The translations under genes and the position numbers were made by a program. 64,000 nucleotides of DNA, taken from assembly GCA_046758325.1 (NCBI GenBank), contig JBHHZZ010000003.1, positions 12,381 through 76,380 of the forward strand, written 5' to 3'. The notes under the pieces are model-generated. The model was not told the origin of the DNA. It did no database searches and worked only from the letters and a program-made list of their open reading frames with translations. Below are positions 3,297 through 57,327 of this stretch, one piece after another. The DNA is from Thermoplasmata archaeon. Its GTDB lineage: Archaea; Thermoplasmatota; Thermoplasmata; RBG-16-68-12; JAJISG01. The number at the start of each line of letters is the position of its first letter. The stretch's first letter is position 1.

Positions 3297-3730
3297 ACGT
3301 CCTCGCTTTCCCGCTTGCTCATGTAGTGGATGTCCTCGTGGAGGCGGTATCCGTTGGATTGGAAGAACACGAGGGAGTCCTCGTTCCAGTCCTCCACCAA
3401 GGCGGCAATGATGCGCCTGCCTCGTCTCTGGAGGGCAGATTCCGCTTCTTGAAGAAGCCTGGTCCCGATGCCCCTCCCTCGATAGTCGGGGTCTACGGCC
3501 AGGCGGTTAATCCATCCCTTGCGCCCGTCATCGGTTCCCAGAACAGTGCCAACCAGTTCGCTGTCGATGTAGGCTCCTATCGCGAGGTCCGGATTGCTCC
3601 TCATCTCCTCTCGGAGAGCGGTGGGAAGGTCCCTGCCCTTCGGTCGATGGGGCAGCCTCGCGCTCCGCCACAAGGCGAGAATTCTCTCTGGATTCTCCTT
3701 ACTCAGTGACCGGATCACTACATCTTTCAT
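3293..3730 (-). CDS. GNAT family N-acetyltransferase
   Basis: Acetyl-CoA binding motif (RLAVDPDYRGRGIGTRLLQEAE). Start chosen at MKDVVIRSL on the minus strand (ATG at 3730). Confidence 0.75.
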   Translation of the reverse strand: MKDVVIRSLSKENPERILALWRSARLPHRPKGRDLPTALREEMRSNPDLAIGAYIDSELVGTVLGTDDGRKGWINRLAVDPDYRGRGIGTRLLQEAESALQRRGRRIIAALVEDWNEDSLVFFQSNGYRLHEDIHYMSKRESEDV

Positions 3731-3843
3731 GCTGCTCACCGAGATCTTAAGGGGAACAGTCGTGGGAACAGTGGGGACGCAGCACAAAAAGTCTTGCCCC
3801 TGAGGCTGTTGACGCCCCAGCATATCCCTACCGGAAACTTGCC

Positions 3844-4836
3844 TTGCCAAGTCTGGTCGATAACAGACGATTGATCGACTGGGAAGCATTTTTTAGAGTC
3901 CCCATCTTTGGTGAGGCGGTGAACCGGAAAAAAGCCCTTCTCATGGCTGTCGTCGTCCTTGCTGGCTCAGTAGCGGGGGCAGGGACGTACTTAATCCTCC
4001 AATCGCTCTTCCTAAGGATCGCGCTGCCTTCCTTCCCGGGGGAGCTAGCGCTTTCCTTTCTCCAGCCCGATCCCTACAGTCGCATCATCGTAGAGGTGGA
4101 CTGGGTTTCTGGGCAGGATCCTGACGCGGCTGCCCTCGACACGCTGAAGAATAGGCTGATAACCTACACACATAAGGAGAAGGTTGACATCGTCCTCTCC
4201 GACACCATGGAGGTCGACATCACCCTTTTCAGCCCGAATGACCTCCACAGCGTCGAGACTTCCTACAGAGACTTCGACTCCGGAGGCGACACCCTGGTGT
4301 TATACGTAATGTATCTCCCAGGAAGCCTGGAGGACAGCGACAAGTCTCTGGCTGTGAGCTACCAGGGCGGCTCCTTAGCCGTCTTCAAGGAAGCCGTTGG
4401 GAGGGTGGCCAGGACAACCCGGACCGTGTCCGCGCAGGATGTGGAGACCTCCGCTCTGATACATGAGCTGGGCCATCTCTTCGGACTGGTGAACATCGTT
4501 TACCAGAGTGATCTGGACTACGAGGACCAGGAGCATCCATTCCACAGTACAAACAGGAGCTGCGTCATGTACTGGGCCATAGAGACCGGTCCTTTCCTCA
4601 CGGAGAAGCCACCGACGGATTTTGGGTCGGAGGCAAGCTACGACATCGCTAAGCTCAGGGAGGGAGGATATGAGACTTCCCCCAGTCGGTTGAGAGAGTC
4701 ATCCACGATGGCATCCTTCCTATCCCACGTGGTGGATGTCCGCATGCAGGTCGCCGAAGGGATGAGACCGATATTCTTATGTAGCGCCGGGAATCCTTTA
4801 GAAGGGGATCATGGCAACAGGCTTCGTGCTGATTAG
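3844..4836 (+). CDS. Membrane-anchored HEXXH zinc metalloprotease, archaemetzincin-like but divergent
   Basis: N-terminal TM anchor (LLMAVVVLAGSVAGAG) and an HELGHLFGL zinc-binding motif with a downstream CVMYW. The third metzincin His is replaced (GLVN). The true start may be the internal Met at about 3943. Confidence 0.55.
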   Translation: MPSLVDNRRLIDWEAFFRVPIFGEAVNRKKALLMAVVVLAGSVAGAGTYLILQSLFLRIALPSFPGELALSFLQPDPYSRIIVEVDWVSGQDPDAAALDTLKNRLITYTHKEKVDIVLSDTMEVDITLFSPNDLHSVETSYRDFDSGGDTLVLYVMYLPGSLEDSDKSLAVSYQGGSLAVFKEAVGRVARTTRTVSAQDVETSALIHELGHLFGLVNIVYQSDLDYEDQEHPFHSTNRSCVMYWAIETGPFLTEKPPTDFGSEASYDIAKLREGGYETSPSRLRESSTMASFLSHVVDVRMQVAEGMRPIFLCSAGNPLEGDHGNRLRAD

Positions 4837-5044
4837 CGTTGAACCTGGGACCGAGAGGGAGGTTTTCCAGGAGGTAATCAAGATCGACGAAGTTGTGGAC
4901 GTCCACCTTCTCTTCGGCGAGTACGACCTCATCGCCAGGGTTGAGGCGCAGGACTACGACGTAATCGGCGATATCGTCGTGAACAAGGTGAGGAAGATTC
5001 CCGGGGTTACGTCCACCAAGACCCTGGCAAAGATACAGCTTTAG
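4811..5044 (+). CDS. Stand-alone Lrp/AsnC ligand-binding (RAM) domain protein
   Basis: 77 aa with the beta-alpha-beta-beta-alpha-beta RAM signature (VLISVEPGTEREVFQEVIKIDEVVDVHLLFGEYDLIARVEA). There is no HTH domain. Confidence 0.7.
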   Translation: MATGFVLISVEPGTEREVFQEVIKIDEVVDVHLLFGEYDLIARVEAQDYDVIGDIVVNKVRKIPGVTSTKTLAKIQL

Positions 5045-20261: not shown

Positions 20262-20649
20262 GTGGCTCAGGGAACCCGTCGCCACAGCCCTACTGGTCGT
20301 AGGCGTCTTCTTCTACTTCAGCGGGGCCGTGGGCATTCTTCGACTTCCCGACGTGTACAACAGGATCCACGCGTCCACCAAGACCTCCACCATAGGTGTC
20401 GTGAGCATACTCCTCTCGGGCCTGGTCTTGCTGGGCATGGACCCGGTGAGCATCAAGGCCTTGGCCATCGTCCTCTTTCTGATGCTCACCTATCCCGTGG
20501 CGGGCCACCTCCTCGCCAGGGCCGCGTACAGAACGGGGGTCGTACTAACAGACAGGACCCTCCGTGATGAGTATAGGCATGTCCTTGACCTGGGGGAAGG
20601 TGAGGGCGTGGAGGAAGAGGCCGAGGTCCGAGACCGAGAACGCGTCTAG
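20248..20649 (+). CDS. mrpG: Mrp antiporter subunit G
   Basis: 133 aa MnhG-like (FFYFSGAVGILRLPDVYNRIHASTKTSTIG). Confidence 0.75.
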   Translation: MCLLEWLREPVATALLVVGVFFYFSGAVGILRLPDVYNRIHASTKTSTIGVVSILLSGLVLLGMDPVSIKALAIVLFLMLTYPVAGHLLARAAYRTGVVLTDRTLRDEYRHVLDLGEGEGVEEEAEVRDRERV

Positions 20650-21842
20650 GGCCTCAGGACGGTTACGTCTTCAGGAGATGTGAACTTGTAGATTTTGCCC
20701 CGCCATTCGAACTCCCTCATCCGCAGGGCTGTCCGCACGTTGTAGATCATCAGGAAGGGTATCAAGGTGGAAGCGAGGTAGAACCAGAAGCGGAAGCGGG
20801 AAAAGTGACGGCTGAAGGCTGGCATGGCGCGCCTGAAGGCCACTCTTCTCAGAAAGTTCTTCCACAGGCCCAGGTAGACGGGACTTAGGAGGAGTAGGGT
20901 CGGGAGGAGGAAGGTCATGCTCAAGGTCGCGAGGAAGCCGCTGGCAGCGGCGAGAAGGAGGGAGGCAGCGTAGATGACGTAGGGGAGGGTGAGCCTCTTC
21001 ATCGTCGGGGCGTACATCAGCGCGAGGCAGGTCTGGCGATTCGTCCAGCGGAGGACATCCGAGAAGGAATGGTCGGTGTAGTTTGCGACCGTTGCCCTGG
21101 GAGCGAAGGATATCCTGTGACCCTTCTCCTTCAGGGCCTGGGTCATGATCATGTCGTCACTCAAACATCTCTCCCACCTCTCCTCGATGCGGAGCTCCTT
21201 CAGGACCTCCCTCCTGATGGCGTAGGAGCCGCCCCATAGGTATGTCCACCTCTCGCTGAACATCACGTTTCCCGCAGCACTGTTCCACGTGGACTGAAGG
21301 GCCGGTCCCAGTCCTCCCCTTGTGGGGAAATACCACCTGTACCCAGTGGACGCTGCCACCCCTGAATCCTCCAGAGGGGCCACCAGATGGGCCAGCCACT
21401 CGAGGTCCGGCTCGATGTCGCCGTCGGCGAAGACCACGATCTCGTCATCCTCCTCCACATGCTCCAAGCCTGCAAGGAGGGCAGCGATCTTTCCCGAACA
21501 TCTCCTCAGGGGTTTCGACCGGACGATGCTCAGGGGCCTCTTTGCCTCCACTTCCCTCAGGTGCCCCTCCGTCTCATCCCCCTGGTCTACAATGAACACG
21601 AGTCGATATTCGCCATACTGCTGGTTGAGCAGGGCATGAAGGTTTTTTTCGAAAATCGGGTCCAGGCCTCGGACGGGGATGAGGACGACGGCCTTTGGCT
21701 GGAAACTGCTCCTGGACCCAGAGGAGGCGGTAATCCGCCGGAGGAAGGCTACACCGTCCGCTAGAGAGATGATGGCGAAGAGCAAGGACCCTATCCCCAA
21801 GGACAGAAGGGTCCACTGGAGAGCGGCGAGGAGCGAGACCAA
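20646..21842 (-). CDS. Membrane-bound family 2 glycosyltransferase
   Basis: GT-A fold with a DxD-type motif (VVFADGDIEPD), plus an N-terminal TM segment and several C-terminal TM helices. Resembles ceramide-glucosyltransferase/GT21-like enzymes. Confidence 0.7.
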   Translation of the reverse strand: MVSLLAALQWTLLSLGIGSLLFAIISLADGVAFLRRITASSGSRSSFQPKAVVLIPVRGLDPIFEKNLHALLNQQYGEYRLVFIVDQGDETEGHLREVEAKRPLSIVRSKPLRRCSGKIAALLAGLEHVEEDDEIVVFADGDIEPDLEWLAHLVAPLEDSGVAASTGYRWYFPTRGGLGPALQSTWNSAAGNVMFSERWTYLWGGSYAIRREVLKELRIEERWERCLSDDMIMTQALKEKGHRISFAPRATVANYTDHSFSDVLRWTNRQTCLALMYAPTMKRLTLPYVIYAASLLLAAASGFLATLSMTFLLPTLLLLSPVYLGLWKNFLRRVAFRRAMPAFSRHFSRFRFWFYLASTLIPFLMIYNVRTALRMREFEWRGKIYKFTSPEDVTVLRP

Positions 21843-21930: not shown

Positions 21931-21962
21931 ATTATATATCGCGGAAGTATAACAGCGTTATA
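21931..21962 (+). promoter_or_regulatory. Promoter of the dsrE-like/tusA operon: TATA box (ATTATATAT) plus operator-like palindrome TATAAC-AGC-GTTATA
   Basis: The TATA box at 21931-21939 lies about 32 bp upstream of the ATG at 21971. A perfect 6+6 inverted repeat at 21948-21962 sits between the TATA box and the predicted start site, which is the classic archaeal repressor-operator position. Confidence 0.45.
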
Positions 21963-21970
21963 GTGAGACT

Positions 21971-22348
21971 ATGACGCAAGAACTCCACATCGTACTGCTT
22001 TCCAGCGAACCCTTTCGAGCGTATCCCGCCATTCAGCTAGCCTTGGGCGCGGCCGCGATGGGCACAAAGGCCAAGGTCTATTGCACGTCCGCTGGCCTGG
22101 AACTCGTGAAGAAGGGCGGGGCGGACGAGATCCAGATGCCCGGTTTCCCTCCCCTTGGCCAGCTGCTTAGGGATGCCCTGAGCTCCGGCGTAAAGGTATG
22201 CGCGTGTGCTCCTTCCCCTGAAATCCTCGAGGCCATGGGAATAACTGAGGATACTGTGGAGGAAGGCATAGAACTGGAGGACGTGGTTACCTTCCTGAGC
22301 GAAGCGCTGCCAGCCGCCAAGGAGGGTGGCATAGTCACGTTCATCTAG
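21971..22348 (+). CDS. DsrE/DsrF-like family sulfur-relay protein
   Basis: 125 aa with the N-terminal HIVLLSSEPFRAYPA...AMGTKAKVYCTSAGLEL pattern of DsrE/peroxiredoxin-like small proteins, and a conserved Cys (VCACAPS). Confidence 0.65.
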   Translation: MTQELHIVLLSSEPFRAYPAIQLALGAAAMGTKAKVYCTSAGLELVKKGGADEIQMPGFPPLGQLLRDALSSGVKVCACAPSPEILEAMGITEDTVEEGIELEDVVTFLSEALPAAKEGGIVTFI

Positions 22349-22356
22349 GAGGAATA

Positions 22357-22626
22357 ATGGCCTCCACAGAGGGAGCGGAGATGGACAGCCAGGAGTTCTC
22401 GGAGGATCCAGCTATCAGGCTGAACACCGTCGGCCTCATCTGTCCTTATCCCGCGTTGGAGACCCAGAAGGCCCTTGGACGGATGAAGAAAGGGCAGGTT
22501 CTAGAGATCCTCACCAACAACGAGCCCACCGCCAAGAAGTCCATTCCCCTTCTCTGCGACCAGGCCGGCTCGAAATACAAGATAATCGAGGAAGAGGATC
22601 GCTGGAGAATTCTCATCAGAAAATGA
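22357..22626 (+). CDS. tusA: TusA-like sulfurtransferase
   Basis: CPxP motif (GLICPYPALE) within a roughly 80 aa two-layer alpha/beta fold. The true start may be the Met at 22381. Confidence 0.75.
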   Translation: MASTEGAEMDSQEFSEDPAIRLNTVGLICPYPALETQKALGRMKKGQVLEILTNNEPTAKKSIPLLCDQAGSKYKIIEEEDRWRILIRK

Positions 22627-22639
22627 CCTGATGCCAGCC

Positions 22640-23281
22640 TCACATCCCGGATAGACCTAGGAGGTCTTCCACAGCTTCCACCCGTCTGGCAGTGGAGCTC
22701 ACTGCAACTTTGACCAGCTCTTCATACGCCGCGGATATCTGCCGATCGGGTCCCCAAACCACCCCATCCCCTTCACCTTCCCAGACGCAAAGCACATCAT
22801 AGTGGTTTATCGGGAAAGCCATGGTTAGTGCCTCGCTGATGCGCTGTCCGAGGTACTCCTTCAGGTCGTAGAGATGGATGGTAGGTTCGCCCACGGCTTC
22901 CTCGTCAGTGAAGCACAGAATGGCAGCGCCTTCCCCCGTCATCTCCTCCAGAATCTCCCTGGAGGCTTCCACAGTGTCCGCCAGCTCCCCTGGCAGCCGA
23001 ATGCTCAGGGCCACATCATGCCCAAAAGCCTGCTTGAGGCAGCCGCTCAACGTTCCCCTAAGCCGCTCGCGTAGCAGAAAGGGAGGCACGGATATCTTCA
23101 GGGCAGCGTGCTCCGAACTGACTACCTGTAGGGCGCTCCTCAAATCCTTCAGAGCTGAAAGGGCATCCCGCAACATCTTCACGGGTGGAAAGCGCGCGTA
23201 ATCCTCCCTGGAGACGTGGAGCAGAACGATGAGCTCTCTCCTCAACTCCTCGGCTGTTTCATCCTCCTGAATGGTTAGCAT
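22640..23281 (-). CDS. Hypothetical protein (213 aa)
   Basis: Clean GC3-rich ORF downstream of the DUF835 gene on the same strand. No motif recognised. Confidence 0.4.
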   Translation of the reverse strand: MLTIQEDETAEELRRELIVLLHVSREDYARFPPVKMLRDALSALKDLRSALQVVSSEHAALKISVPPFLLRERLRGTLSGCLKQAFGHDVALSIRLPGELADTVEASREILEEMTGEGAAILCFTDEEAVGEPTIHLYDLKEYLGQRISEALTMAFPINHYDVLCVWEGEGDGVVWGPDRQISAAYEELVKVAVSSTARRVEAVEDLLGLSGM

Positions 23282-23958: not shown

Positions 23959-24432
23959 CTAAACTTCCTCCTTCACGGTGGCAAGCGAGCTGCTGGTAAG
24001 GGTCCTCTCCACACCTTTCATGGACCTGAGCTTATCCAGGACCAACCGCCCCACGTCCTCCAGGGTCCCGGTCCTCACCTTCAGGAGAATGTCCCAATCC
24101 CCCGTTATCAGATGGACCTCAAGGATCTCCGGGAACTTGGCCAGTTCGTTGGCCAGCCGTCTCTGGGAGACCTCTGGATTGGGCTGATAGCGGACGAACA
24201 CGAAGGTCGTCATCCCTTGACCCAGTCTGGAGTAGTCTTTCAGCACCGTGAACTTCCGTATGATGCCCTCCCTTCTCATCCTCTGGATTCGGTAGTTGAC
24301 GGTCGGCCGCGGCAGGCCTAGCTCCCGGGCGATGTGGGCCAGGCTCTTGCTGGAATCCTCAATCAATTTCTCCAGAATCCTCTCATCAGTACTGTCGAGC
24401 TGATACTTCATTGTCGAATGTTTATAGGACAT
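23959..24432 (-). CDS. Lrp/AsnC family transcriptional regulator
   Basis: N-terminal HTH (DERILEKLIEDSSKSLAHIARELGLPRPTVNYRIQRM) plus a C-terminal RAM domain. Confidence 0.85.
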   Translation of the reverse strand: MSYKHSTMKYQLDSTDERILEKLIEDSSKSLAHIARELGLPRPTVNYRIQRMRREGIIRKFTVLKDYSRLGQGMTTFVFVRYQPNPEVSQRRLANELAKFPEILEVHLITGDWDILLKVRTGTLEDVGRLVLDKLRSMKGVERTLTSSSLATVKEEV

Positions 24433-24657
24433 GGCAATACATTAAGGTTTTGATATAGGAGGTGTGAATTCGTTAATGAGTCACGGGGTTGAGGATGCAG
24501 GAAAGGTAGCACACCCGTTCCCATGCGGACTTCGGCCTGCTTCCGAGTTTGTTCTTCCCCTCTGAGGAGTCCCCCGGTCCCATCCCCATCATGGTCGCCG
24601 GCCCGGTCCGCAAAGGCCTTGTAGCTGCAGCCCCTAGCTTGGCGGAGGCGAGGTGGT

Positions 24658-35395: not shown

Positions 35396-35938
35396 TTGAG
35401 GGAGGTCCTGGATCTCGAGAGTCGCCGAAGAATCTTCGAGTTCCTGCAGCAGTATCCGGGCCTGCACCTGAGGGAGCTGGAGAGGCAGCTCGGCATGGAC
35501 GTGCGGGCCCTGAGGTACCACCTGGAGTTCTTGGAGAAACATGAGGCCATCACTTCCCTGATGCAGGAGGGATACCTCCGCTACTATCCCCGGCAGTGGG
35601 ACGAGGGCTACTTCCGGGAGAGGGTAGGGGCCTTCGAGAAGAGGGTGCTGGGGCTGCTGAGGCAGCGAATGCCCCTACACCTCATCCTTCTTCTCCTCGA
35701 CCAAGGGGAGATGTCCAGCGAGGAGCTCCAGACACATGCGGGGATAGCCCCATCGACCCTGAGCTACCATCTAAAGAAGTTGTCCAAGCTCCAGCTCATC
35801 GAGTCTAGGACTGAGGGCAAGAGGAAGATATACCGGGCAGGAGACCCTCAGGCCGTGGTCCAGATCCTGATGAAGTACAGGCCCACAAGGGACCTCGTAG
35901 AGGACTTCCTGGAACTCTGGGAGAAGATCGGACTATGA
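35396..35938 (+). CDS. Transcriptional regulator with two tandem winged helix-turn-helix domains (ArsR-like)
   Basis: Two repeats of the HTH-wing pattern: RRIFEFLQQYPGLHLRELERQLGMDVRALRYHLEFLEKHEAI, and LHLILLLLDQGEMSSEELQTHAGIAPSTLSYHLKKLSKLQLIESRTEGKRKIY. Confidence 0.6.
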   Translation: MREVLDLESRRRIFEFLQQYPGLHLRELERQLGMDVRALRYHLEFLEKHEAITSLMQEGYLRYYPRQWDEGYFRERVGAFEKRVLGLLRQRMPLHLILLLLDQGEMSSEELQTHAGIAPSTLSYHLKKLSKLQLIESRTEGKRKIYRAGDPQAVVQILMKYRPTRDLVEDFLELWEKIGL

Positions 35939-36996: not shown

Positions 36997-37902
36997 ATGC
37001 TCTCCCAGAGGAAGCCTGAATGGCTGAGGGTACGGCTCCCTGGGGGGGAGACTTATCTCGGCCTCAGGTCATTGCTACGCGACAAGGAACTCCACACCGT
37101 CTGCGAGGAGGCTCACTGTCCCAACGTGGGGGAGTGTTGGGGCGGCGGCACGGCAACTATCATGCTTCTCGGCGATGTGTGCACCCGGGGCTGCCGCTTC
37201 TGTGCGGTCAAGAAGGGAAACCCGAGGGGTCAGGTGGACCTATTCGAGCCGGTGAAGGTGGCTGAGGCTGTTTCCCGCCTCGGGCTGACGTATGTGGTCC
37301 TCACCTCGGTCGACAGGGACGACCTCCCTGATGGCGGCGCATCTCACTTCGCCGCGACCGTCCGCCGCCTCAAGGCCCGGGTCCCAGACATCATGGTGGA
37401 GGCCCTCGTTCCTGACTTCCAGGGGGATCTGGAGGCCGTAAGGACGGTGGTTGGGGCTGGGCCCGAGGTCCTTGCCCAGAATCTGGAGACAGTGGAGCGT
37501 CTGACTCACCCTGTCAGAGACCGGCGGGCCGGCTACCATCAAACCCTTACCGTCCTCCGGGAGGCCAAGGGGATGCGAGCCGACATCTTTACAAAGTCCT
37601 CCCTGATGCTAGGCTTAGGCGAGAAAGAGGAGGAGGTCCTTCAGGCCATGAAGGATCTGAGAAATGCTGGCGTCGATATCCTCACCCTCGGACAGTACTT
37701 GAGGCCTAGTCGAAGGCACGTAGAGGTCGACCGATACGTCCCGCCGGAGGAGTTCGACTACTATCGCGAGCGAGGGGAGGAGATGGGCTTCCTGTACGTC
37801 GCTGCGGGCCCCCTGGTAAGGAGTTCTTATAGAGCTGGCGAATATTTCTTGGAGAAGGTGCTTCATAAGGAGGTTCCTTTGGACGTGCCAGCCGGGAGGT
37901 AG
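36997..37902 (+). CDS. lipA: Lipoyl synthase
   Basis: Radical-SAM CxxxCxxC motif ([10 protein letters not shown]) plus the N-terminal auxiliary-cluster cysteines ([12 protein letters not shown]). Confidence 0.9.
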
Positions 37903-37906
37903 TTGT

Positions 37907-38983
37907 ATGGGAGAACTGCTTCAGATCGTCGGTCTTGACGGAAGCTACGATGAGAAGATGGAGCCGAAGCTGTCGGAGGAGGAGCTGCTCAAGCTTTACC
38001 GCTACATGGTCCTGACCCGCGTTTTGGACGCGAGGGCCATGACCCTCCAGAGGCAGGGCCGCATAGGCTTCTTCGTCCCCAGCCAGGGGGAGGAAGCCGT
38101 GCAGATAGGCAGCAGCTACGCCCTCAAGCCAGAGGACTGGATGATCCCCGCCTACAGGGAGCAGGGGGCGGCGCTGCTGAAGGGCTTCCCCCTCAAGACC
38201 CTTATCGCCCAGCTATACGGCAATCAGGAGGACATCCTCAAGGGCCGGCAGATGCCCAACCACTTCGGCAACAAGTCCATCAACTTCGTGACGCCGTCGA
38301 GCCCGGTGGGCACCCAGATGCCCATCGCCGTAGGCATCGCATGGGCCGCCAAGATCCAGGGACAAAAGGTCGTCTCCTTAGTGTACTTCGGCGATGGGGC
38401 TACTTCCCAGGGGGACTTTCACGTGGCCATGAACTTCGCTGGCGTATTCAAGGCCCCTGTGGTCTTCCTGTGCAAGAACAACCAGTGGGCCATCTCCCTT
38501 CCCTTCACCAGCCAGACCGCCTCGGAGAACATCGCTGTCAAGGCCCGGGCCTACGGCTTCGAAGGTACGAGAGTGGATGGAAACGACGTTCTGTCGGTCT
38601 ACGTGGCCTGCAGGGAGGCCGTGGAGGCCGCCCGGAGGGGGAAGGGACCCACCCTCATCGAGGCCGTCACCTATCGCATGGGCCCCCACTCTACCTCCGA
38701 CGATCCCAAGCGGTACAGGCCCGAAACGGAACTGGAGGAGTGGAAACAGAAGGACCCCATCCTGCGTTTCCAGCTCTACCTGAAGGCCAAGGGGATATGG
38801 AATGAGGAGCTGGAGGCTAGTGTACGTCAGGAAGTGGAGGATCTGGTGTCCGATGCAGTCAAGGCGGCCGAGGAGGTCGGGCCGCCGCCCCCAGAGACCA
38901 TCTTCGAGGATGTCTATGTGGATATGCCTTGGAACCTGGAGGAGCAGATGGACGAGTTCCTCAAGCTCATCAGGAGGTCCTAG
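37907..38983 (+). CDS. 2-oxoacid dehydrogenase E1 component, alpha subunit (TPP-dependent)
   Basis: TPP-binding motif YFGDGATSQGDFHVAMNFAG...FLCKNNQWAIS. Substrate (pyruvate versus branched-chain) not resolvable from sequence. Confidence 0.85.
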   Translation: MGELLQIVGLDGSYDEKMEPKLSEEELLKLYRYMVLTRVLDARAMTLQRQGRIGFFVPSQGEEAVQIGSSYALKPEDWMIPAYREQGAALLKGFPLKTLIAQLYGNQEDILKGRQMPNHFGNKSINFVTPSSPVGTQMPIAVGIAWAAKIQGQKVVSLVYFGDGATSQGDFHVAMNFAGVFKAPVVFLCKNNQWAISLPFTSQTASENIAVKARAYGFEGTRVDGNDVLSVYVACREAVEAARRGKGPTLIEAVTYRMGPHSTSDDPKRYRPETELEEWKQKDPILRFQLYLKAKGIWNEELEASVRQEVEDLVSDAVKAAEEVGPPPPETIFEDVYVDMPWNLEEQMDEFLKLIRRS

Positions 38984-39958
38984 ATGACGACCATGAATAT
39001 CGTTCAGGCCGTCAACGCGGCCCTGAAGGAGGAGATGGAGAGAGACGACCGCGTGGTAATCCTCGGCGAAGACGTGGGCAAGAACGGCGGCGTCTTCAGG
39101 TGCACCGAGGGGCTCTACGATCTCTTCGGCCCCGACAGGGTCATCGACACGCCCCTGGCCGAGTCCGGCATCATCGGGACGGCCATAGGAATGGCCTTGT
39201 ATGGCCTTAGACCGGTGCCGGAGATACAGTTCCTGGACTTCATCTACCCTGCCTTCGACCAGATCGTCAGCGAGGCGGCCAAGTTCAGGTACCGCTCTGG
39301 CGGGGAGTACCCTTGTCCCATCACGATTAGGACGCCATACGGAGGCGGCATCAAAGGAGGTCACTATCACTCCCAGAGCTCCGAGGCGTACTTCGCCCAC
39401 ACGCCAGGTCTCAAGGTGGTCATCCCCTCCAACCCCTACGACACCAAGGGGCTGTTGCTGGCCTCCATCCGCGACCCGGATCCCGTTCTCTTCATGGAGC
39501 CCAAGAAGGCCTACTTCGCCGTTCGGGGGGAGGTGCCGGAGGAGGAGTACACGGTGCCCCTCGGCCAGGCGAAGGTGCTGAGGGAGGGGGATGACGTCTC
39601 CGTCATCGCCTACGGGGCCATGATCCACGTCTGCATGGAGGCCGCCAAGAAGGCAGAGGAGGTGGGCATCGACACCGATGTGGTGGACCTTCGGACCCTC
39701 GTCCCCTTGGATGTGGAACCCGTCCTGAACTCCGTCCGGAAGACCGGCAGGGTTGTCATCGTGTACGAGGCACCGAAGACATGCGGCTACGGCGCTGAGA
39801 TAGCGGCCCTGATCGCGGAGAAGGCCATCGAGCACTTAGAGGCTCCCATCATCCGCGTGGCGGGTTTCGACACGCCCTTCCCTTATGCCTTGGAGGATCT
39901 CTACCTGCCCGACGCTGATCGGGTTCTGGACGCGGTTGAGAGAGCCTACGGCTTCTAG
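38984..39958 (+). CDS. 2-oxoacid dehydrogenase E1 component, beta subunit
   Basis: Transketolase-like pyrimidine-binding and C-terminal domains (VVILGEDVGKNGGVFRCTEGL...). Confidence 0.85.
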   Translation: MTTMNIVQAVNAALKEEMERDDRVVILGEDVGKNGGVFRCTEGLYDLFGPDRVIDTPLAESGIIGTAIGMALYGLRPVPEIQFLDFIYPAFDQIVSEAAKFRYRSGGEYPCPITIRTPYGGGIKGGHYHSQSSEAYFAHTPGLKVVIPSNPYDTKGLLLASIRDPDPVLFMEPKKAYFAVRGEVPEEEYTVPLGQAKVLREGDDVSVIAYGAMIHVCMEAAKKAEEVGIDTDVVDLRTLVPLDVEPVLNSVRKTGRVVIVYEAPKTCGYGAEIAALIAEKAIEHLEAPIIRVAGFDTPFPYALEDLYLPDADRVLDAVERAYGF

Positions 39959-39968
39959 GAGGTTGTAA

Positions 39969-41201
39969 ATGGCGAAGGAGTTCCGATTGCCGGACATAGG
40001 TGAAGGTCTCACGGAGGGGGAGATCGTCAAGTGGTTCGTGAAGGAAGGTCAGGAGGTGAAGGAGAACGACACGCTCGTGGAGGTGATGACGGAGAAGGTC
40101 AACGTGGAGATCCCGAGTCCCTTCACCGGTGTGGTCCTCCGGCTCTTGGCCCAGGAGGGGGAGGTAGTAAACGTGGGCCAGACCATCATCGTCATTGGTG
40201 AGGAGGGGGAGGAGGTTCCCGAGGTCGAAGCCGTGCCGGAGGCAGGGGCCGCGGAGGAGGTCCGAGAAGAGGTCCCGAAGGAGGCCCCTCCGGAGGTCGC
40301 GCCGCCACCGACGGGCAAGGTCCTGGCCACTCCCGCCGTTAGGCGTCTGGCTCGGGAACTGAGGGTGGATCTCGCGCAAGTCGAGGGAACTGGGCCTAGG
40401 GGAAGAGTCACGGAGGAGGACGTGCGAAGGCACTTGGAGGTCTCTGAGGTGAGGCCGGAGGTGGAGGCCGCTCCCCCGCCGGAGGAACTCGTGGAGAGAA
40501 TTCCCATCCGAGGTGTCCGGCGGGCCATCTCCGAGAAGATGCTCCGTTCCAAGAACACCGCCTCCCACTTCACCTACGTGGAGGAGGTGGACGTGACGGA
40601 GCTCGTAGCCCTGCGGGACAGGGCCAGAGCCTGGGCGGAGGAGAGAGGCGTCAAGCTCACCTACCTCCCCTTCATCCTAAAGGCCCTTGGAGCCGCCCTG
40701 AAGGAGCACCCCTCCCTCAACGCCACCGTGGACTGGGAGAAGGGCGAAATCCAAGTCAAGAAGTACTACAACATCGGCGTCGCTACCGCCACCGAGCAGG
40801 GCCTCATGGTTCCGGTTCTGAAGGGGGTGGACAAGAAGACGGTCCTGCAGATTGCCAGGGAGATTGAGGAGCTCTCGGAGAAAGCCAGGGACGGCAAGCT
40901 CTCCCTGAGTGACGTACATGACTCCACCTTCACGGTGACCAGCCTCGGAGCCCAGGGAGGTCTGTTGGCAACGCCTATCATCAACCACCCTGAGCTGGCC
41001 ATCCTGGGAGTTCACAAGATAGCCAAGAGGCCGGTGGTGAGGGACGGACAGATCGTCGTCCGGGAGGTGATGAACGTCAGTCTCTCCTTCGATCACCGAA
41101 TCATCGACGGCCACATCGGTGCTGCCTTCACCCAGACTCTGATCCGCTATCTCGAGGACCCCGGTCTTCTGCTGCTGCACGTGCTGGAGTCGGGGGAGTG
41201 A
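39969..41201 (+). CDS. Dihydrolipoamide acyltransferase (E2) with N-terminal lipoyl domain
   Basis: Lipoyl-lysine motif LVEVMTEKVNVEIPSP, an Ala/Pro/Glu-rich linker, a peripheral-subunit-binding domain, and catalytic DHRIIDG. Confidence 0.9.
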   Translation: MAKEFRLPDIGEGLTEGEIVKWFVKEGQEVKENDTLVEVMTEKVNVEIPSPFTGVVLRLLAQEGEVVNVGQTIIVIGEEGEEVPEVEAVPEAGAAEEVREEVPKEAPPEVAPPPTGKVLATPAVRRLARELRVDLAQVEGTGPRGRVTEEDVRRHLEVSEVRPEVEAAPPPEELVERIPIRGVRRAISEKMLRSKNTASHFTYVEEVDVTELVALRDRARAWAEERGVKLTYLPFILKALGAALKEHPSLNATVDWEKGEIQVKKYYNIGVATATEQGLMVPVLKGVDKKTVLQIAREIEELSEKARDGKLSLSDVHDSTFTVTSLGAQGGLLATPIINHPELAILGVHKIAKRPVVRDGQIVVREVMNVSLSFDHRIIDGHIGAAFTQTLIRYLEDPGLLLLHVLESGE

Positions 41202-42601
41202 TGGCGAGAAAAGTGAGGGCCGCCGTCATCGGGGCCGGTCCCGGGGGCTACGTTGCAGCTATCCGACTGGGACAGCTGGGCGTCGAGACCGTCCTCGTCG
41301 AGAAGGACAGGCTTGGCGGGGAATGCCTCAACTACGGCTGCATACCCTCCAAGGCCCTCATCTCCATCGGCAACCTGGTCCACAAGGTCCGCGGCGCGGA
41401 AGAGATGGGCGTGCACGTCAAGGGGCTGACCGTCGATGGGGAGAAGCTGCAGTCGTGGAAGCGAAAGGTGGTGGACCGCCTCGCCAAGGGTATTGCCGGC
41501 TTATGCAAGGCAGCGGGGGTCGAGGTCCTCTACGGCGACGCCACCTTCCTGTCGCCTCGCCGGCTGGAGGTGTCCTCCGCCGAGGGGATGACGACCCTGG
41601 AGGCGGAGAACTTCATCATCGCCACGGGATCAGAGCCCATACCGTTGAAGGGCTTCGATGTGGACGGCGAGCGAGTCATCTTCCCGAAGCAGTCGCTGGA
41701 GCTAACCAGGATTCCGGAGAGCATGACCATCATCGGCGGCGGCATCACCGGTCTGGAGATCGGGACCATGTACGCCAAGCTGGGTACCCGTGTGGTGGTT
41801 GTCGAGCTGCTAGACCAGCTCCTCCCGGGCATTCCTATGGATATCGTCAAGGTGATAGAGAGGTCTCTCAGGCGTCTCCGAGTGGAGTACCACGTCAAGT
41901 CGAAGGCCCTGGGCCTGGAGAAGAGAGAAGACAGGGTGGTCCTTGAGGTGGAGACCCCGCAGAAGAGGATCAGGATAGAGAGCGAGCTCCTCATGGTCTC
42001 AGTGGGGAGGAGGGCCAGGACCGCGGGGTTGGGCCTGGACAAGGCGGGGGTGAAGCTGAACTCCGAGGGCTTCATACGGGTGGACAAGCGCATGCAGACG
42101 AGCGCGCAGGGCATCTATGCCATCGGCGACGTCATCGGCGTGCCATACCTGGCCCACAAGGCCTCCAAAGAGGGAATCGTGGCGGCGGAGGCCATCGCTG
42201 GTCTCCCAAGTGAGGCGGACTTTAGGGCCATGCCCGCAGCCATCTTCACTGATCCCGAGATCGCCATGGTGGGTCTCTCCGAGGAGCAGGCGGGTGAGCA
42301 GGGCTACGATGTCGCAGTGGGCAAGTTTCCCTTCTCCGCATCGGGCAGGGCCTTAACCACCGGCAAGGCCGATGGGTTTGTCAAGGTCGTCGCCGAGAGG
42401 TCTACTCGAGAGGTCCTGGGGGTGCAGATAGTGGGTCCCGAGGCCTCAGACCTCATCAGCGAGGCGGCCCTGGCCATCGAGATGGGGGCCGTGGCAGATG
42501 ACATAGCCCTCACGGTTCACCCCCATCCCACCCTTCCCGAGAGTTTCATGGAGGCTGCGGAGGACGTCCTAGGAAAGGCGATTCACATACCGAAGCGATG
42601 A
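41198..42601 (+). CDS. lpdA: Dihydrolipoamide dehydrogenase (E3)
   Basis: FAD motif and redox disulfide GGECLNYGCIPSKAL, plus a C-terminal HPHPTLPE dimerisation motif. Confidence 0.9.
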   Translation: MMARKVRAAVIGAGPGGYVAAIRLGQLGVETVLVEKDRLGGECLNYGCIPSKALISIGNLVHKVRGAEEMGVHVKGLTVDGEKLQSWKRKVVDRLAKGIAGLCKAAGVEVLYGDATFLSPRRLEVSSAEGMTTLEAENFIIATGSEPIPLKGFDVDGERVIFPKQSLELTRIPESMTIIGGGITGLEIGTMYAKLGTRVVVVELLDQLLPGIPMDIVKVIERSLRRLRVEYHVKSKALGLEKREDRVVLEVETPQKRIRIESELLMVSVGRRARTAGLGLDKAGVKLNSEGFIRVDKRMQTSAQGIYAIGDVIGVPYLAHKASKEGIVAAEAIAGLPSEADFRAMPAAIFTDPEIAMVGLSEEQAGEQGYDVAVGKFPFSASGRALTTGKADGFVKVVAERSTREVLGVQIVGPEASDLISEAALAIEMGAVADDIALTVHPHPTLPESFMEAAEDVLGKAIHIPKR

Positions 42602-43281
42602 AACGAAGCTGCGTACTGGTGGATTTGGGTCTCGTCGACTATGGCGAAGCGTGGGAACTCCAGAAGCGCCTGGTGGCCGAGCGCCTTGAAGACGCTGTTT
42701 CGGATATCCTCCTTCTCGCGGAGCACATCCCTACCTACACGGTAGGCCGCCGCGGGAGCGCAGACGGGCTGGAGAAGCTGGGACTGCCCGTCTATGAGGT
42801 GGAAAGGGGGGGAGACGTGACGTACCACGGTCCTGGGCAGCTTGTTGGATATCCCATCCTTTCCCTTCCAAGGGGCAAGCTGGATGTGAGGGCGTACGTG
42901 ACTGACTTGGAGGAGGTTCTGATGAGGACCGCGGCGGACTTCGACGTGGAGGGGGGCAAGGGACCGCATGCTGGACTCTGGGTCGGCTCGAGGAAGCTCG
43001 CCTCCATCGGAGTTGCCATAAAGCACTACGTCACCTATCACGGCTTTGCTCTCAACGTGAATCCCGACCTCTCCCCCTTTAGGAGGATCAGACCTTGTGG
43101 GCTGGAGGGAGCTTCGATAACCTCCTTGGAGGAGATCCTCCACCGTCCTCTTGTCATGGAGGAGGTGAAGACGTCCCTGACCAGACACTTCTCAAAGGTC
43201 TTCGGGGTGGATATGCTGCCATCTGGAAAGGTTGCTCGTAAGGACATATCCTTGAGCGGACCCACCGTCTCCAGCGCATGA
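42598..43281 (+). CDS. lipB: Lipoyl(octanoyl) transferase
   Basis: BPL/LPL catalytic domain with motifs RGGDVTYHGPGQLVGYPIL and KHYVTYHGFALNV. Overlaps the E3 stop by 4 nt. Confidence 0.8.
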   Translation: MKRSCVLVDLGLVDYGEAWELQKRLVAERLEDAVSDILLLAEHIPTYTVGRRGSADGLEKLGLPVYEVERGGDVTYHGPGQLVGYPILSLPRGKLDVRAYVTDLEEVLMRTAADFDVEGGKGPHAGLWVGSRKLASIGVAIKHYVTYHGFALNVNPDLSPFRRIRPCGLEGASITSLEEILHRPLVMEEVKTSLTRHFSKVFGVDMLPSGKVARKDISLSGPTVSSA

Positions 43282-55937: not shown

Positions 55938-55949
55938 GTGTAATAAGCT

Positions 55950-56001
55950 TTTTATAGTGAGGTATCATAGCGACGCTATGTCCATAGCGTCCTGATGTAG
56001 A
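55950..56001 (+). promoter_or_regulatory. Promoter/operator of surface-protein gene 3: TATA (CTTTTTATAG), then 9-bp perfect inverted repeat GACGCTATG-TC-CATAGCGTC
   Basis: The TATA box at 55950-55957 is about 72 bp upstream of ATG 56029. The palindrome at 55982-56001 sits at the predicted transcription start, with an extra CATAGCG copy at 55976. Confidence 0.45.
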
Positions 56002-56028
56002 AAGGCTCGCTATGCAAAAGGTGAGAAA

Positions 56029-57327
56029 ATGAAGACAGCCGTGAGTGCCCTGTTGGCCCTCCTCCTCTTGGTCTCCCCCCTGGCAGCCTTTGCCGCTGCC
56101 CAGGAGCCCACGGAGATAGAGAGGGACCTGCAGGTCGACGTAAGCGTCGGTTCGACCGACCGCTTGGGCGGCGGCAACTGGGTCAAGATCGAAGTAGGAA
56201 AGACCATCTTTGCCGTCGTCTATGGAACGGAGAATAACCCGAACAACGTGAAGATGTTCGTAGAGTACGACAGGTACCTCGGAGCCGCGGAGATCTACAG
56301 CAATGAGACGGGCGAGTTGCTCGTAACTAGGCCCATCCCAGTGCGGACAATAATGGTCCAGAGCTTCGACCTCCTGGTGGAGTTCAGGGACGGAGACAAC
56401 GACGGCCTTCTCCACTTCCCGAGAGACTGGAGAGACCTCCTCATGGACACCTATGACTACCCCAGGAAAGTCTTGTCTCTCAAGCAGGCTTGGACTCTCG
56501 AGGGATTGGTCATAGATGACTCAGAGGAGAACGTCACGAAGGTCGACTTCAACCTGACTGCTACCAACCTCGGTTACACCGACCTGCGCCCTGAAGATGA
56601 TCCGGGCGATGGTCTAGACAGGATTACCTTGGCCTTCCACGTCAAGGTGGAGCGCGTCCTGAAGACGGGCGAGGTGAACGTCTACAAGGTAGTCGTCGAT
56701 GAGGACAGAGGCATCGTTTCCACGGAGCTCAACAGGACGGAAACACTGACGGGCCTGACCGTGAATGGCAGCTTCAAGTACGACCACTACATCGAAGGCT
56801 GGGACTGGGGCGGTAACGACTCCCGCCTGGCCATGGCAACCCACGTACTAGTCGGAAACCACGTGCCGCCCGAAGTTCTCCAATGGGCTCGACTACAGTT
56901 CGATCCCCACGCTCGGGCTGGTGACGACGAGTACCACGAGGACGCCATGACGGAGAGGCCTCGCCTGATAACCGTGGACAAGATGGAGTTCGAGGACGAG
57001 TGGACCCGCGTCGGTCGACTCCGGTGGGTCTCCGATGTGGAGGTCGACGGAGAGACCATGGAGATGAGCTTCCAGCTGCACGGGATTGAGCGCATCTTGA
57101 GCTTCGAGCACAACTTCGCGGGACTGCGTTTCCGCGGGGCCTTCATCTACCCCAAAGGCGAGAGGATCTTCCACGATCCGTCCCTCGACGCGAGTGTGTT
57201 CGTACCTGTGAGCATCGAATCTCCGCTGGGCCTGGGCCCCTACTTCATTCAGCTGGGGCTTGCGGGCCTTGCAGTGGTCGGACTGGTTCTCTACCGGACC
57301 CTCCGAAAGAAGCCCAACCCCCCCTAG
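56029..57327 (+). CDS. Secreted acidic surface protein, paralog 3 (larger, 432 aa)
   Basis: Signal peptide MKTAVSALLALLLLVSPLAAFAAA, a DGDNDG loop, many N-x-S/T sequons, conserved IYPKGERIFHDPSLD, and a C-terminal TM segment (LGLAGLAVVGLVLY) with basic tail RTLRKKPNPP. Confidence 0.7.
   Translation: MKTAVSALLALLLLVSPLAAFAAAQEPTEIERDLQVDVSVGSTDRLGGGNWVKIEVGKTIFAVVYGTENNPNNVKMFVEYDRYLGAAEIYSNETGELLVTRPIPVRTIMVQSFDLLVEFRDGDNDGLLHFPRDWRDLLMDTYDYPRKVLSLKQAWTLEGLVIDDSEENVTKVDFNLTATNLGYTDLRPEDDPGDGLDRITLAFHVKVERVLKTGEVNVYKVVVDEDRGIVSTELNRTETLTGLTVNGSFKYDHYIEGWDWGGNDSRLAMATHVLVGNHVPPEVLQWARLQFDPHARAGDDEYHEDAMTERPRLITVDKMEFEDEWTRVGRLRWVSDVEVDGETMEMSFQLHGIERILSFEHNFAGLRFRGAFIYPKGERIFHDPSLDASVFVPVSIESPLGLGPYFIQLGLAGLAVVGLVLYRTLRKKPNPP

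What the first reader, a model, noticed from the sequence alone, without database searches (positions are those of the whole stretch)
21931..22626. DsrE-like / TusA sulfur-relay pair with an operator-like palindrome between TATA box and start site
The two small genes form a minimal sulfur-carrier module (a DsrE-fold protein with a conserved Cys, and TusA with CPxP). Their leaderless-type promoter carries a perfect TATAAC-N3-GTTATA palindrome exactly between the TATA box and the predicted start site, which is the textbook position for archaeal repression.
The motif ATAGTGAG within and next to it recurs at the surface-protein-3 promoter region.
Basis: seen in the sequence. Interest (0 to 1): 0.5.

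Follow-up and report, generated by a model that had tools for sequence, protein, structure and literature searches.

The report
Conserved operator at archaeal sulfur-carrier promoter
A two-gene sulfur-carrier operon (DsrE-like protein plus TusA) in an uncultured Thermoplasmata archaeon carries a 15-bp palindrome between its TATA box and start site; the palindrome is kept letter for letter in dozens of related genomes, so it is almost certainly the docking site of a still unidentified regulator.

Summary
ORF 21971-22348 is a DsrE-fold protein with an invariant active-site-equivalent Cys79. ORF 22357-22626 is a TusA-family protein with CPYP. TATAACagcGTTATA sits at 21948-21962, 8 nt after a TATA box (21932-21939) and 8 nt before the ATG.

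Within the window the palindrome is not statistically special: there are 19 perfect 6-N3-6 palindromes against 18.5 expected. Comparison with other genomes decides the matter. Of 88 orthologous loci from Thermoplasmata MAGs and metagenomes (60-86% protein identity, several different gene neighbourhoods), 73 carry the palindrome. In an alignment of 23 promoters the only invariant columns are ATAAC, TTAT and the ATG, while the 3-nt spacer and the flanks vary freely.

The palindrome keeps a fixed 7-8 nt distance from the TATA box but a variable 5-14 nt distance from the ATG. It shows no compensatory changes and occurs once per locus. This is the signature of a dimeric DNA-binding protein sitting at about -15 to -1, most likely a repressor that blocks RNA polymerase recruitment.

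The regulator is not identified. The neighbouring Lrp gene is not supported as the regulator. The ATAGTGAG recurrence is at chance level and is not conserved. I rate this a new member of a known kind, of moderate interest.

The parts
21932..21939 (+). TATA box (TTATATAT) of the dsrE-like/tusA operon
   Evidence: Read directly. When orthologous promoters are anchored on the palindrome, columns -16 to -9 read TTCA(A/T)ATA or TTATATA in 81-96% of the 47 unique promoter sequences that carry the palindrome, except column -12, which is A or T in near-equal shares. A purine-rich BRE-like stretch lies just upstream (AAGAA in the window, CGAAAG or CAAGG in relatives).
21948..21962 (.). Operator-like palindrome TATAAC-N3-GTTATA, with a 13-bp invariant core ATAAC-N3-(G/C)TTAT. 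It is the predicted binding site of a dimeric transcription factor at about -15 to -1.
   Evidence: Perfect and unique in the window. Found with 2 or fewer mismatches in 73 of 88 orthologous loci. ATAAC and TTAT are invariant in the 23-sequence alignment A2. The spacer shows 16 different triplets. There is no covariation and the departures are uncompensated.
21962..21963 (+). Predicted transcription start (the A/G of ...TTATA|G). It would give an 8-9 nt leader without a Shine-Dalgarno sequence.
   Evidence: This is inference. The TATA centre is at about 21935.5, and the usual archaeal distance of about 26-27 nt (established knowledge) places the start here. The G after the palindrome is conserved in 46 of 47 unique promoters. 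No transcriptome data are available.
21971..22348 (+). DsrE-fold sulfur-carrier-like protein of 125 aa, with a CxC motif (Cys77, Cys79)
   Evidence: Pfam PF13686 and PF02635 above their cut-offs. AlphaFold2 pLDDT 95.8. Foldseek hits 2QS7, 3PNX, 3MC3 and 2HY5 with E 7.5e-10 to 2.2e-4. Cys79 is invariant and aligns to the active-site Cys of 3MC3.
22357..22626 (+). TusA-family sulfur carrier of 89 aa with CPYP, preceded by the Shine-Dalgarno sequence AGGAGG (22340-22345, inside the end of the dsrE-like ORF)
   Evidence: Pfam PF01206 at 2.5e-17. CPYP in 84 of 84 homologues. It follows the DsrE gene in 82 of 85 loci. Sequence read.

Best explanation
The DsrE-like and TusA genes form a two-gene operon. 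It is transcribed from the TATA box at 21932-21939, with a predicted start at about 21962-21963, which leaves a near-leaderless mRNA. The TusA gene has its own Shine-Dalgarno sequence.

The 15-bp palindrome TATAAC-N3-GTTATA (21948-21962) is the operator of a sequence-specific, probably homodimeric, helix-turn-helix-type transcription factor encoded elsewhere in the genome. Its two half-sites are about one helical turn apart. Because the site fills the gap between the TATA box and the start site, a bound factor would let TBP and TFB bind but would block RNA polymerase recruitment. That makes it a repressor, released by a signal that is probably related to sulfur or thiol-redox state.

Shown here: the genes, the fold, the motifs, the palindrome, its deep conservation and its fixed geometry. 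Inferred: the start site, protein binding, the sign of regulation and the signal.
For: 1. Phylogenetic footprint. 69 of 88 loci have 1 mismatch or fewer, and 73 of 88 have 2 or fewer. In alignment A2 the only invariant columns are ATAAC, TTAT and ATG, against a mean column identity of 58%. The spacer and the 8-nt linker to the TATA box are about 50% conserved, and the adjacent coding columns are 43-87%.
2. The site travels with the operon, not with the neighbourhood. It is present in the Mnh/GT2 context (window, L001, L090) and in the IF-2B/DUF309/OFOR context (L002, L086, L088, L089).
3. Geometry. The distance to the TATA box is fixed at 7-8 nt, while the distance to the ATG varies from 5 to 14 nt. 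In the L070 group, which has a Shine-Dalgarno leader, the site still overlaps the predicted start. This points to a constraint at the level of transcription.
4. Sequence is conserved, not pairing. There are 0 compensatory changes, and the departures (G to C at the inner position, changes at the outer T or A) are uncompensated. The hairpin is not part of the minimum-energy RNA fold.
5. One site per locus. There is 1 site in the 64-kb window and 1 in each 17-20 kb locus, in genomes of 59-66% G+C.
6. Precedent. TrmBL1 sites downstream of the TATA box repressed all nine templates tested in vitro (PMC4706686).
Against: - No protein is identified and no binding or expression data exist.
- The start site is predicted, not measured.
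- The A/T-rich right arm could double as a promoter-proximal or initiator element, so part of the conservation may reflect basal promoter function.
- Some orthologues lack the site: L084/L085 at 70% identity, L041, L062, L068 and the more distant lineages. The site is therefore dispensable.
- Many of the loci are closely related, so the counts overstate the number of independent observations. There are 50 unique promoter sequences, and still fewer independent lineages.
Confidence: 0.72

Rival explanations
1. The palindrome is a core-promoter element and not a regulator site. The A/T-rich GTTATA|G would be the promoter-proximal and initiator region that helps DNA melting, and TATAAC would be a fortuitous or auxiliary TATA-like element. 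Conservation would then reflect promoter strength rather than regulation.
For: The right arm ends exactly at the predicted start, and the following G is 98% conserved. Archaeal promoters often have an A/T-rich stretch around -10 (established knowledge). The genomes are G+C-rich, so an A/T island is needed for melting.
Against: A melting element needs A/T richness, not 13 fixed letters arranged as a perfect dyad. The left arm is as invariant as the right. Other promoters in the window show no such motif. The paralogue L084 and several orthologues do without it.
Confidence: 0.1
2. The site is bound by an activator or a dual-function factor rather than a repressor. One example would be a factor that recruits TFB or RNA polymerase to a weak promoter.
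For: Nothing here measures the sign of regulation. The TATA box in many relatives (TTCAAATA) is non-canonical and might need help.
Against: Characterised archaeal activator sites lie upstream of BRE/TATA, while sites downstream of the TATA box repress (PMC4706686). The site would overlap the RNA polymerase footprint.
Confidence: 0.1
3. The neighbouring Lrp/AsnC-family protein (23959-24432, minus strand) is the cognate regulator.
For: It lies 2 kb away and is syntenic in the window's clade. The invariant core has the 5-3-5 layout (ATAAC-N3-GTTAT) recalled for archaeal Lrp-type sites; this recollection is from memory and was not tested. A distant thaumarchaeal-like locus (L069) has an AsnC-type HTH gene right after tusA.
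Against: The identical operator occurs in the soil clade, where no full-length Lrp gene lies within 10 kb; only an unrelated stand-alone RAM-domain gene is present. The Lrp gene's own promoter is conserved among 5 orthologues and has no such motif even at 3 mismatches. The spacer is mostly G/C-containing (AGG, AGA, GCG and others), whereas Lrp-type sites are recalled to need an A/T centre. L069 lacks the palindrome.
Confidence: 0.1
4. The palindrome acts as an RNA hairpin in the 5' leader that controls translation or stability.
For: It is a perfect 6-bp inverted repeat close to the start codon.
Against: The predicted start lies at its 3' end, so it would not be transcribed. The hairpin is absent from the minimum-energy folds, and folding is not better than shuffled sequence in 2 of 3 cases. 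Six pairs show no covariation, and the changes that do occur break pairs. The distance to the ATG varies while the distance to the TATA box is fixed.
Confidence: 0.03

Closest known systems
TrmBL1 / Thermococcales glycolytic motif (TATCAC-N5-GTGATA) of Pyrococcus furiosus (PMC4706686)
   Same: Both are A/T-rich hexamer palindromes, and the half-site differs by one letter (TATCAC against TATAAC). Both usually lie directly downstream of BRE/TATA. In that position the TrmBL1 site blocks RNA polymerase recruitment.
   Different: The spacer is 3 nt, not 5, which implies a different dimer geometry. The TrmBL1 motif marks a global sugar regulon with dozens of sites, whereas here there is one site per 17-64 kb, always at one operon. 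The lineage differs (Thermoplasmata, not Thermococcales). No TrmB-family gene was found next to the site.
SurR, the sulfur-response regulator of Thermococcales (GTTn3AAC; PMC12162507)
   Same: SurR is an archaeal regulator linked to sulfur metabolism, and its motif is a short dyad with a 3-nt spacer built from the triplets GTT and AAC.
   Different: The orientation is inverted (AAC-N3-GTT here). The arms here are longer and A/T-rich. SurR controls hydrogenase and sulfur-reduction operons, not DsrE/TusA. SurR is restricted to Thermococcales (from memory).
DsrE3A-DsrE2B-TusA sulfur-transfer cluster of Metallosphaera cuprina (PMC4175335)
   Same: A DsrE-fold protein with an active-site Cys is encoded next to a TusA with a conserved Cys. 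In Metallosphaera cuprina, thiosulfonate is passed from DsrE3A to TusA. The S. solfataricus DsrE2B and DsrE3A homologues (2QS7, 3MC3) are among the four best structural matches.
   Different: The motif here is Cys-x-Cys, not Cys-X7-Cys. There are no hdr-like or dihydrolipoamide-dehydrogenase genes adjacent. Identity to those structures is 24-28%. The score against the NCBIfam DsrE2 equivalog is far below its cut-off. The host is not a known sulfur oxidiser.
Bacterial sulfane-sulfur-responsive repressors of sulfur-carrier operons (ArsR-type SoxR/sHdrR of Hyphomicrobium denitrificans, PMC10451225 and PMC12423496; CstR and BigR from memory)
   Same: The logic is the same: a dedicated repressor with an operator at the promoter of genes that include TusA and DsrE-type carriers.
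   Different: Those are bacterial sigma-70-type promoters with adjacent regulator genes. Here the promoter is archaeal, there is no adjacent regulator, and the only ArsR-like protein in the window (35396-35938) has no cysteine.

Membership tests
DsrE/DsrF-like fold (Pfam PF02635 / PF13686) | Profile match above the curated cut-off | tested here: met
   PF13686 scores 49.1 bits against a cut-off of 25. PF02635 scores 31.8 bits against a cut-off of 22.7.
DsrE/DsrF-like fold (Pfam PF02635 / PF13686) | Rossmann-like alpha/beta fold matching solved DsrE-family structures | tested here: met
   AlphaFold2 pLDDT 95.8 and pTM 0.89. Foldseek hits: 2QS7 E 7.5e-10 (TM 0.78), 3PNX, 3MC3, and DsrEFH 2HY5.
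DsrE/DsrF-like fold (Pfam PF02635 / PF13686) | Conserved Cys at the DsrE active-site position | tested here: met
   Cys79 is invariant in 24 homologues. It aligns with the Cys of ...YVCVQS... in 3MC3. By position this appears to be the first Cys of the Cys-X7-Cys motif that PMC4175335 equates with the DsrE active-site Cys.
DsrE2 / DsrE3A subgroups (PMC4175335; NCBIfam NF047629) | Equivalog score; Cys-X7-Cys motif (DsrE3A); linkage to hdr-like or dihydrolipoamide-dehydrogenase genes | tested here: not met
   NF047629 scores 23.7 bits against a cut-off of 210. The motif is C77-A-C79, and 3MC3's second Cys has no Cys counterpart in the query. The nearest dihydrolipoamide dehydrogenase (E3) is 19 kb away in a 2-oxoacid dehydrogenase cluster, and no hdr genes were found among the ORFs scanned.
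TusA family (PF01206) | Profile match plus a Cys-Pro-x-Pro motif | tested here: met
   62.9 bits against a cut-off of 28.6. CPYP at residues 29-32, and CPYP in 84 of 84 homologues.
E. coli-type TusA / YedF / YeeD equivalogs | NCBIfam equivalog cut-off | tested here: not met
   Scores against cut-offs: TusA 34.1 vs 78, YedF 40.2 vs 79, YeeD 23 vs 147.5. It is a family member, not an orthologue of a characterised protein.
Archaeal repressor operator overlapping the core promoter | Dyad-symmetric site located between the TATA box and the start site | tested here: met
   The site is at 21948-21962, the TATA box at 21932-21939 and the ATG at 21971. The same layout occurs in relatives. The start site is predicted only.
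Archaeal repressor operator overlapping the core promoter | Conservation of the site in orthologous promoters beyond that of the flanking sequence | tested here: met
Archaeal repressor operator overlapping the core promoter | Specific binding by a transcription factor, and repression of transcription | not testable with these tools
   Needs EMSA or footprinting, in vitro transcription or genetics.
Lrp/FFRP-type binding site served by the neighbouring Lrp | Regulator gene associated with the site across lineages, an autoregulatory copy at its own promoter, and an A/T-rich centre (the last from memory) | tested here: not met
   The Lrp gene is present only in the window clade. No full-length Lrp gene lies near the site in the soil clade. 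There is no motif at the Lrp promoter. The spacer is mostly G/C-containing.
SurR box | GTT-N3-AAC core | tested here: not met
   The site reads AAC-N3-GTT. SurR motif from PMC12162507.

The most novel reading that the evidence does not exclude
The palindrome is the operator of an undescribed regulator found across this clade and dedicated to a single sulfur-carrier operon in Thermoplasmata, sensing sulfane sulfur or thiol-redox state. It would be an archaeal counterpart of the bacterial persulfide sensors (CstR, BigR, SqrR, sHdrR). The DsrE-like/TusA pair would then be an inducible persulfide or thiosulfonate handling module in archaea that are not sulfur oxidisers. The motif would give a direct handle, by DNA-affinity capture, to fish out that sensor.
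Probability: 0.3. Interest if true: 0.55.

Novelty: new member of a known kind. Interest (0 to 1): 0.42.

Why it matters
- Very few cis-regulatory elements are known for Thermoplasmata and their uncultured relatives, and I know of none for archaeal DsrE/TusA-type sulfur carriers.
- A 13-bp core that is kept letter for letter across lineages whose proteins are only about 60-85% identical is a ready-made bait for DNA-affinity capture or for EMSA with candidate factors. It can also serve as a marker for annotating this operon's promoter in MAGs.
- The finding suggests that this small carrier pair is made on demand rather than constitutively. That narrows its likely role towards stress or substrate handling. 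Related DsrE genes sit next to glutaredoxin/ferredoxin-thioredoxin reductase or thioredoxin-reductase-like genes.
- The finding does not change any concept. The mode of control is the standard archaeal one.

Tried and rejected
1. A search for a second copy of the motif, to define a regulon. There is none in the window at 2 or fewer mismatches. The five extra hits at 3 mismatches are close to chance and not promoter-like. No ATAAC/GTTAT pair occurs at any spacing from 0 to 14 nt. There is none in the ~430 kb of sequence in the 83 related loci and the window, apart from one hit at 1 mismatch in A/T-rich L083, which is compatible with chance.
2. A search for a conserved neighbouring regulator. 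Five 17-20 kb neighbourhoods with Pfam calls show no transcription-factor gene common to the clades.
3. The window's other DNA-binding candidates are a stand-alone RAM domain (4811-5044) and an ArsR/MarR-like double winged-helix protein (35396-35938). The latter has no Cys, and nothing links it to the site.
4. More distant DsrE loci (Nitrosocaldus with a divergent HTH_45 gene, the Grx-FTR-DsrE lineage, Hadarchaeum) were checked for the same palindrome. It is absent.
5. My first greedy ORF-clustering census was spoiled by antisense shadow ORFs in the G+C-rich DNA. It was replaced by the precomputed gene calls.
6. I first read the conserved AGGCAT upstream as the start of a divergent gene. It lies just after the stop codon of a co-directional IF-2B gene, so I rejected that reading.
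7. Literature searches for the motif found nothing relevant.
8. The RNA-hairpin reading was tested and rejected.

Full report
**1. What is in the sequence**

The region reads ...aagaaTTATATATcgcggaagTATAACagcGTTATAgtgagactATG....
- The palindrome TATAAC-N3-GTTATA occupies 21948-21962.
- An eight-base TATA box (TTATATAT) lies at 21932-21939.
- The ATG of a 125-aa ORF is at 21971.
- That ORF (21971-22348) is followed 8 nt later by an 89-aa ORF (22357-22626) with a good Shine-Dalgarno sequence (AGGAGG).
- A GT2 glycosyltransferase gene (20646-21842) runs divergently upstream.
- A 213-aa ORF with no family match, a DUF835 gene and an Lrp/AsnC gene follow on the opposite strand.

**2. The two proteins**

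The first ORF matches Pfam DrsE_2 and DsrE above their cut-offs, and the second matches TusA.

For the first ORF:
- An AlphaFold2 model built from 24 homologues is confident (pLDDT 95.8).
- Its best matches among solved structures are DsrE-family proteins: SSO1126/2QS7, Swol_2425/3PNX, SSO1125/3MC3 and DsrEFH/2HY5.
- PMC4175335 identifies 3MC3 and 2QS7 as the Sulfolobus solfataricus DsrE3A and DsrE2B homologues.
- Cys79 is invariant among homologues. It aligns with the Cys of 3MC3 that by position appears to be the active-site Cys.

The protein is nonetheless not a DsrE2 or DsrE3A orthologue:
- The NCBIfam DsrE2 equivalog scores 23.7 bits against a cut-off of 210.
- The motif is Cys-x-Cys, not Cys-X7-Cys.
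- No hdr-like genes are adjacent.

For TusA, CPYP is present in the window protein and in all 84 downstream homologues. The protein falls below the equivalog cut-offs for E. coli TusA, YedF and YeeD.

"A minimal DsrE-fold/TusA sulfur-carrier pair" is therefore a fair description. The actual substrate is unknown.

**3. Is the palindrome more than chance?**

Within the window it is not. There are 19 perfect 6-N3-6 palindromes, and shuffled sequence gives 18.5 +/- 4.3. This particular sequence is nevertheless unique in the window even with 2 mismatches allowed.

The decisive evidence is comparative.
- A genome scan found three loci. The Methanomassiliicoccales MAG (86% protein identity) has TATAACgtcGTTATA. 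A Thermoplasmata MAG (65% identity, different upstream gene) has TATAACggaGTTATA. Both sites sit in the same place.
- A Hadarchaeum homologue (46% identity) lacks both the palindrome and TusA.
- A metagenome scan added 80 loci, and contig look-ups added more.
- Of 88 loci with upstream DNA, 51 have a perfect palindrome, 69 have 1 mismatch or fewer and 73 have 2 or fewer. Of 50 unique promoter sequences, 39 have 2 mismatches or fewer (two loci cut off at a contig end are excluded).
- In a 23-sequence alignment spanning the clades, the only invariant columns are ATAAC, TTAT and ATG, with a mean column identity of 58%.
- The 3-nt spacer takes 16 different values.
- The 8-nt linker to the TATA box is about 50% conserved, and the first codons are 43-87% conserved.

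The operator is thus better conserved than the coding sequence beside it. Many loci are close relatives, so the raw counts overstate independence. Even so, the site is present in at least two quite different gene neighbourhoods: Mnh antiporter/GT2, and MBL/IF-2B...DUF309/OFOR.

**4. Geometry**

- Anchored on the palindrome, the TATA box (TTCA[A/T]ATA, or TTATATA in the window's clade) sits at a fixed 7-8 nt upstream in 81-96% of unique promoters.
- The distance to the ATG ranges from 5 to 14 nt.
- Applying the usual archaeal spacing, with the TATA centre about 26-27 nt before the start (established knowledge), the start falls on the A/G immediately after GTTATA. That G is conserved in 46 of 47 promoters.
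- The palindrome would then span about -15 to -1, and the mRNA would have a 6-9 nt leader with no Shine-Dalgarno sequence.
- In one sub-group (L070 and relatives) a Shine-Dalgarno leader has appeared and the TATA box has moved, yet the palindrome still overlaps the predicted start.

A position tied to the transcription machinery rather than to the start codon argues for control at the level of transcription.

**5. DNA site or RNA hairpin?**

- All six arm pairs show zero covariation.
- The only departures are uncompensated: G to C at the inner position in 3 of 23 sequences, and outer T or A changes in 2 of 23.
- The hairpin is not part of the minimum-energy RNA fold of the window sequence or of two relatives.

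Sequence is being conserved, not pairing. That is what a protein reading bases in duplex DNA would produce.

**6. Who binds it?**

This is not resolved.
- The site occurs once per locus: once in the 64-kb window, once in each 17-20 kb neighbourhood, and in ~430 kb of sequence from the 83 related loci plus the window. No local regulon or autoregulated regulator gene is visible.
- No transcription-factor gene is shared by the neighbourhoods.
- That Lrp gene's promoter is conserved among five orthologues (GTTAAC[G/A]AATT......CTTAATGTATTGCC-ATG) but contains nothing like the palindrome.
- The operator's centre is mostly G/C-containing. The Lrp-type sites I recall have an A/T centre; this recollection is from memory and was not tested.
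- The only other DNA-binding proteins found in the window are a stand-alone RAM domain (4811-5044) and a cysteine-free ArsR/MarR-like protein (35396-35938).

I put the Lrp hypothesis at about 0.1.

**7. Mechanism proposed**

A homodimeric factor binds the two half-sites, whose centres are about 9 bp apart on one face of the helix. It occupies the space between TBP/TFB and the start site and prevents RNA polymerase recruitment. An effector releases it.

The precedent is explicit for TrmBL1. Its TATCAC-N5-GTGATA sites lie directly downstream of BRE/TATA in 21 of 28 promoter-proximal cases, and all nine such templates tested in vitro were repressed, whereas upstream sites activate (PMC4706686).

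The nature of the signal is inference from the cargo.
- DsrE-fold/TusA pairs pass persulfide or thiosulfonate sulfur (PMC4175335).
- In other lineages the same DsrE sub-family sits behind glutaredoxin plus the ferredoxin-thioredoxin reductase catalytic subunit (L094).
- In Hadarchaeum it sits behind what appears, from the DNA read alone, to be a thioredoxin-reductase-like gene (L003).
- Both contexts point to thiol or persulfide chemistry.

**8. The ATAGTGAG remark**

The 8-mer occurs at 21960, 55716 and 55954.
- Three copies against 1.14 expected is reached in 12% of shuffles.
- Only its ATAG part belongs to the conserved operator-plus-start element. The GTGAG part is not kept even in the closest relative.
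- At 55954 it simply overlaps another TATA box.
- In the window, ATAGT-gag-ACTAT forms a small local inverted repeat over the start codon, and this repeat is not conserved.

I treat the link as chance.

**9. Comparison and novelty**

The kind of element is well known: a repressor-type operator in an archaeal core promoter. This particular motif, its host clade and its target operon are not described in the literature I could search.
- It is not a SurR box, because the orientation is inverted.
- It is not a TGM, because the spacer and the regulon size differ.

I rate it a new member of a known kind. It is of moderate interest, mainly as a clean, testable handle on regulation in an uncultured archaeal lineage.

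Noticed in passing
window 55966-56014: Four copies of CATAGCG/CGCTATG in alternating orientation, including a perfect 7-N1-7 and a perfect 9-N2-9 (GACGCTATG/CATAGCGTC). They sit between a TATA-like cTTTTTATAg (55948-55957) and the ATG of the signal-peptide ORF 56029-57327. This looks like a separate operator array or a 5'-leader structure.
   Followed up: no
window 22653-22667: Perfect palindrome AGACCTAGGAGGTCT, lying 27 nt after the tusA stop codon and inside the 3' end of the convergent 213-aa ORF. It may be a terminator-like hairpin shared by the convergent genes.
   Followed up: no
L094 5470-6378; L003 about 3700-4369; L091 5549-6444: The same DsrE sub-family appears without TusA in other lineages. 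In L094 it sits in a glutaredoxin / ferredoxin-thioredoxin-reductase-B / DsrE operon. In Hadarchaeum (L003) it follows a gene that, from the DNA read alone, looks like a thioredoxin-reductase-type flavoprotein. In Nitrosocaldus (L091) it is divergent from an HTH_45 winged-helix gene. None of these loci has the palindrome.
   Followed up: partly
L084 9759-10000 and L089 9935-10019 (both from assembly GCA_030157145.1): One MAG assembly holds two dsrE-tusA pairs. One pair is in the IF-2B context and has the palindrome. The other (70% identity to the window protein) lies next to type-IV-pilus-like genes and has a 240-nt upstream region without the palindrome. This could be a paralogue or a second organism binned into the assembly.
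   Followed up: partly
Related loci, 34-39 nt upstream of the palindrome (e.g. L012 1414-1420, L029 2932-2938): In the soil/sediment clade a second conserved element, (G)AGGCAT(A), follows the stop codon of the upstream IF-2B gene, ahead of a CAC-AAAG BRE-like stretch. It is absent from the window's clade.
   Followed up: no
window 24433-24500, and the Lrp promoters in L001, L008 and L090: The Lrp/AsnC gene's upstream region has its own conserved blocks, GTTAAC(G/A)AATT(C/T) and (A)ATCAAAAAC(C/T)TTAATGTATTGCC just before the ATG. They are conserved among orthologues that are 72-77% identical and are possibly the Lrp protein's own operator.
   Followed up: no
window 22357-22626 compared with 21971-22348: TusA diverges much faster than its DsrE partner across the same loci: 31-68% identity against 60-86%.
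   Followed up: no
window 36997-43281: A cluster of lipoyl synthase, 2-oxoacid dehydrogenase E2, dihydrolipoamide dehydrogenase E3 and lipoate-protein ligase lies 15-21 kb downstream of the dsrE-tusA pair. No hdr-like genes were seen, so this is not an sHdr-type sulfur-oxidation locus.
   Followed up: partly
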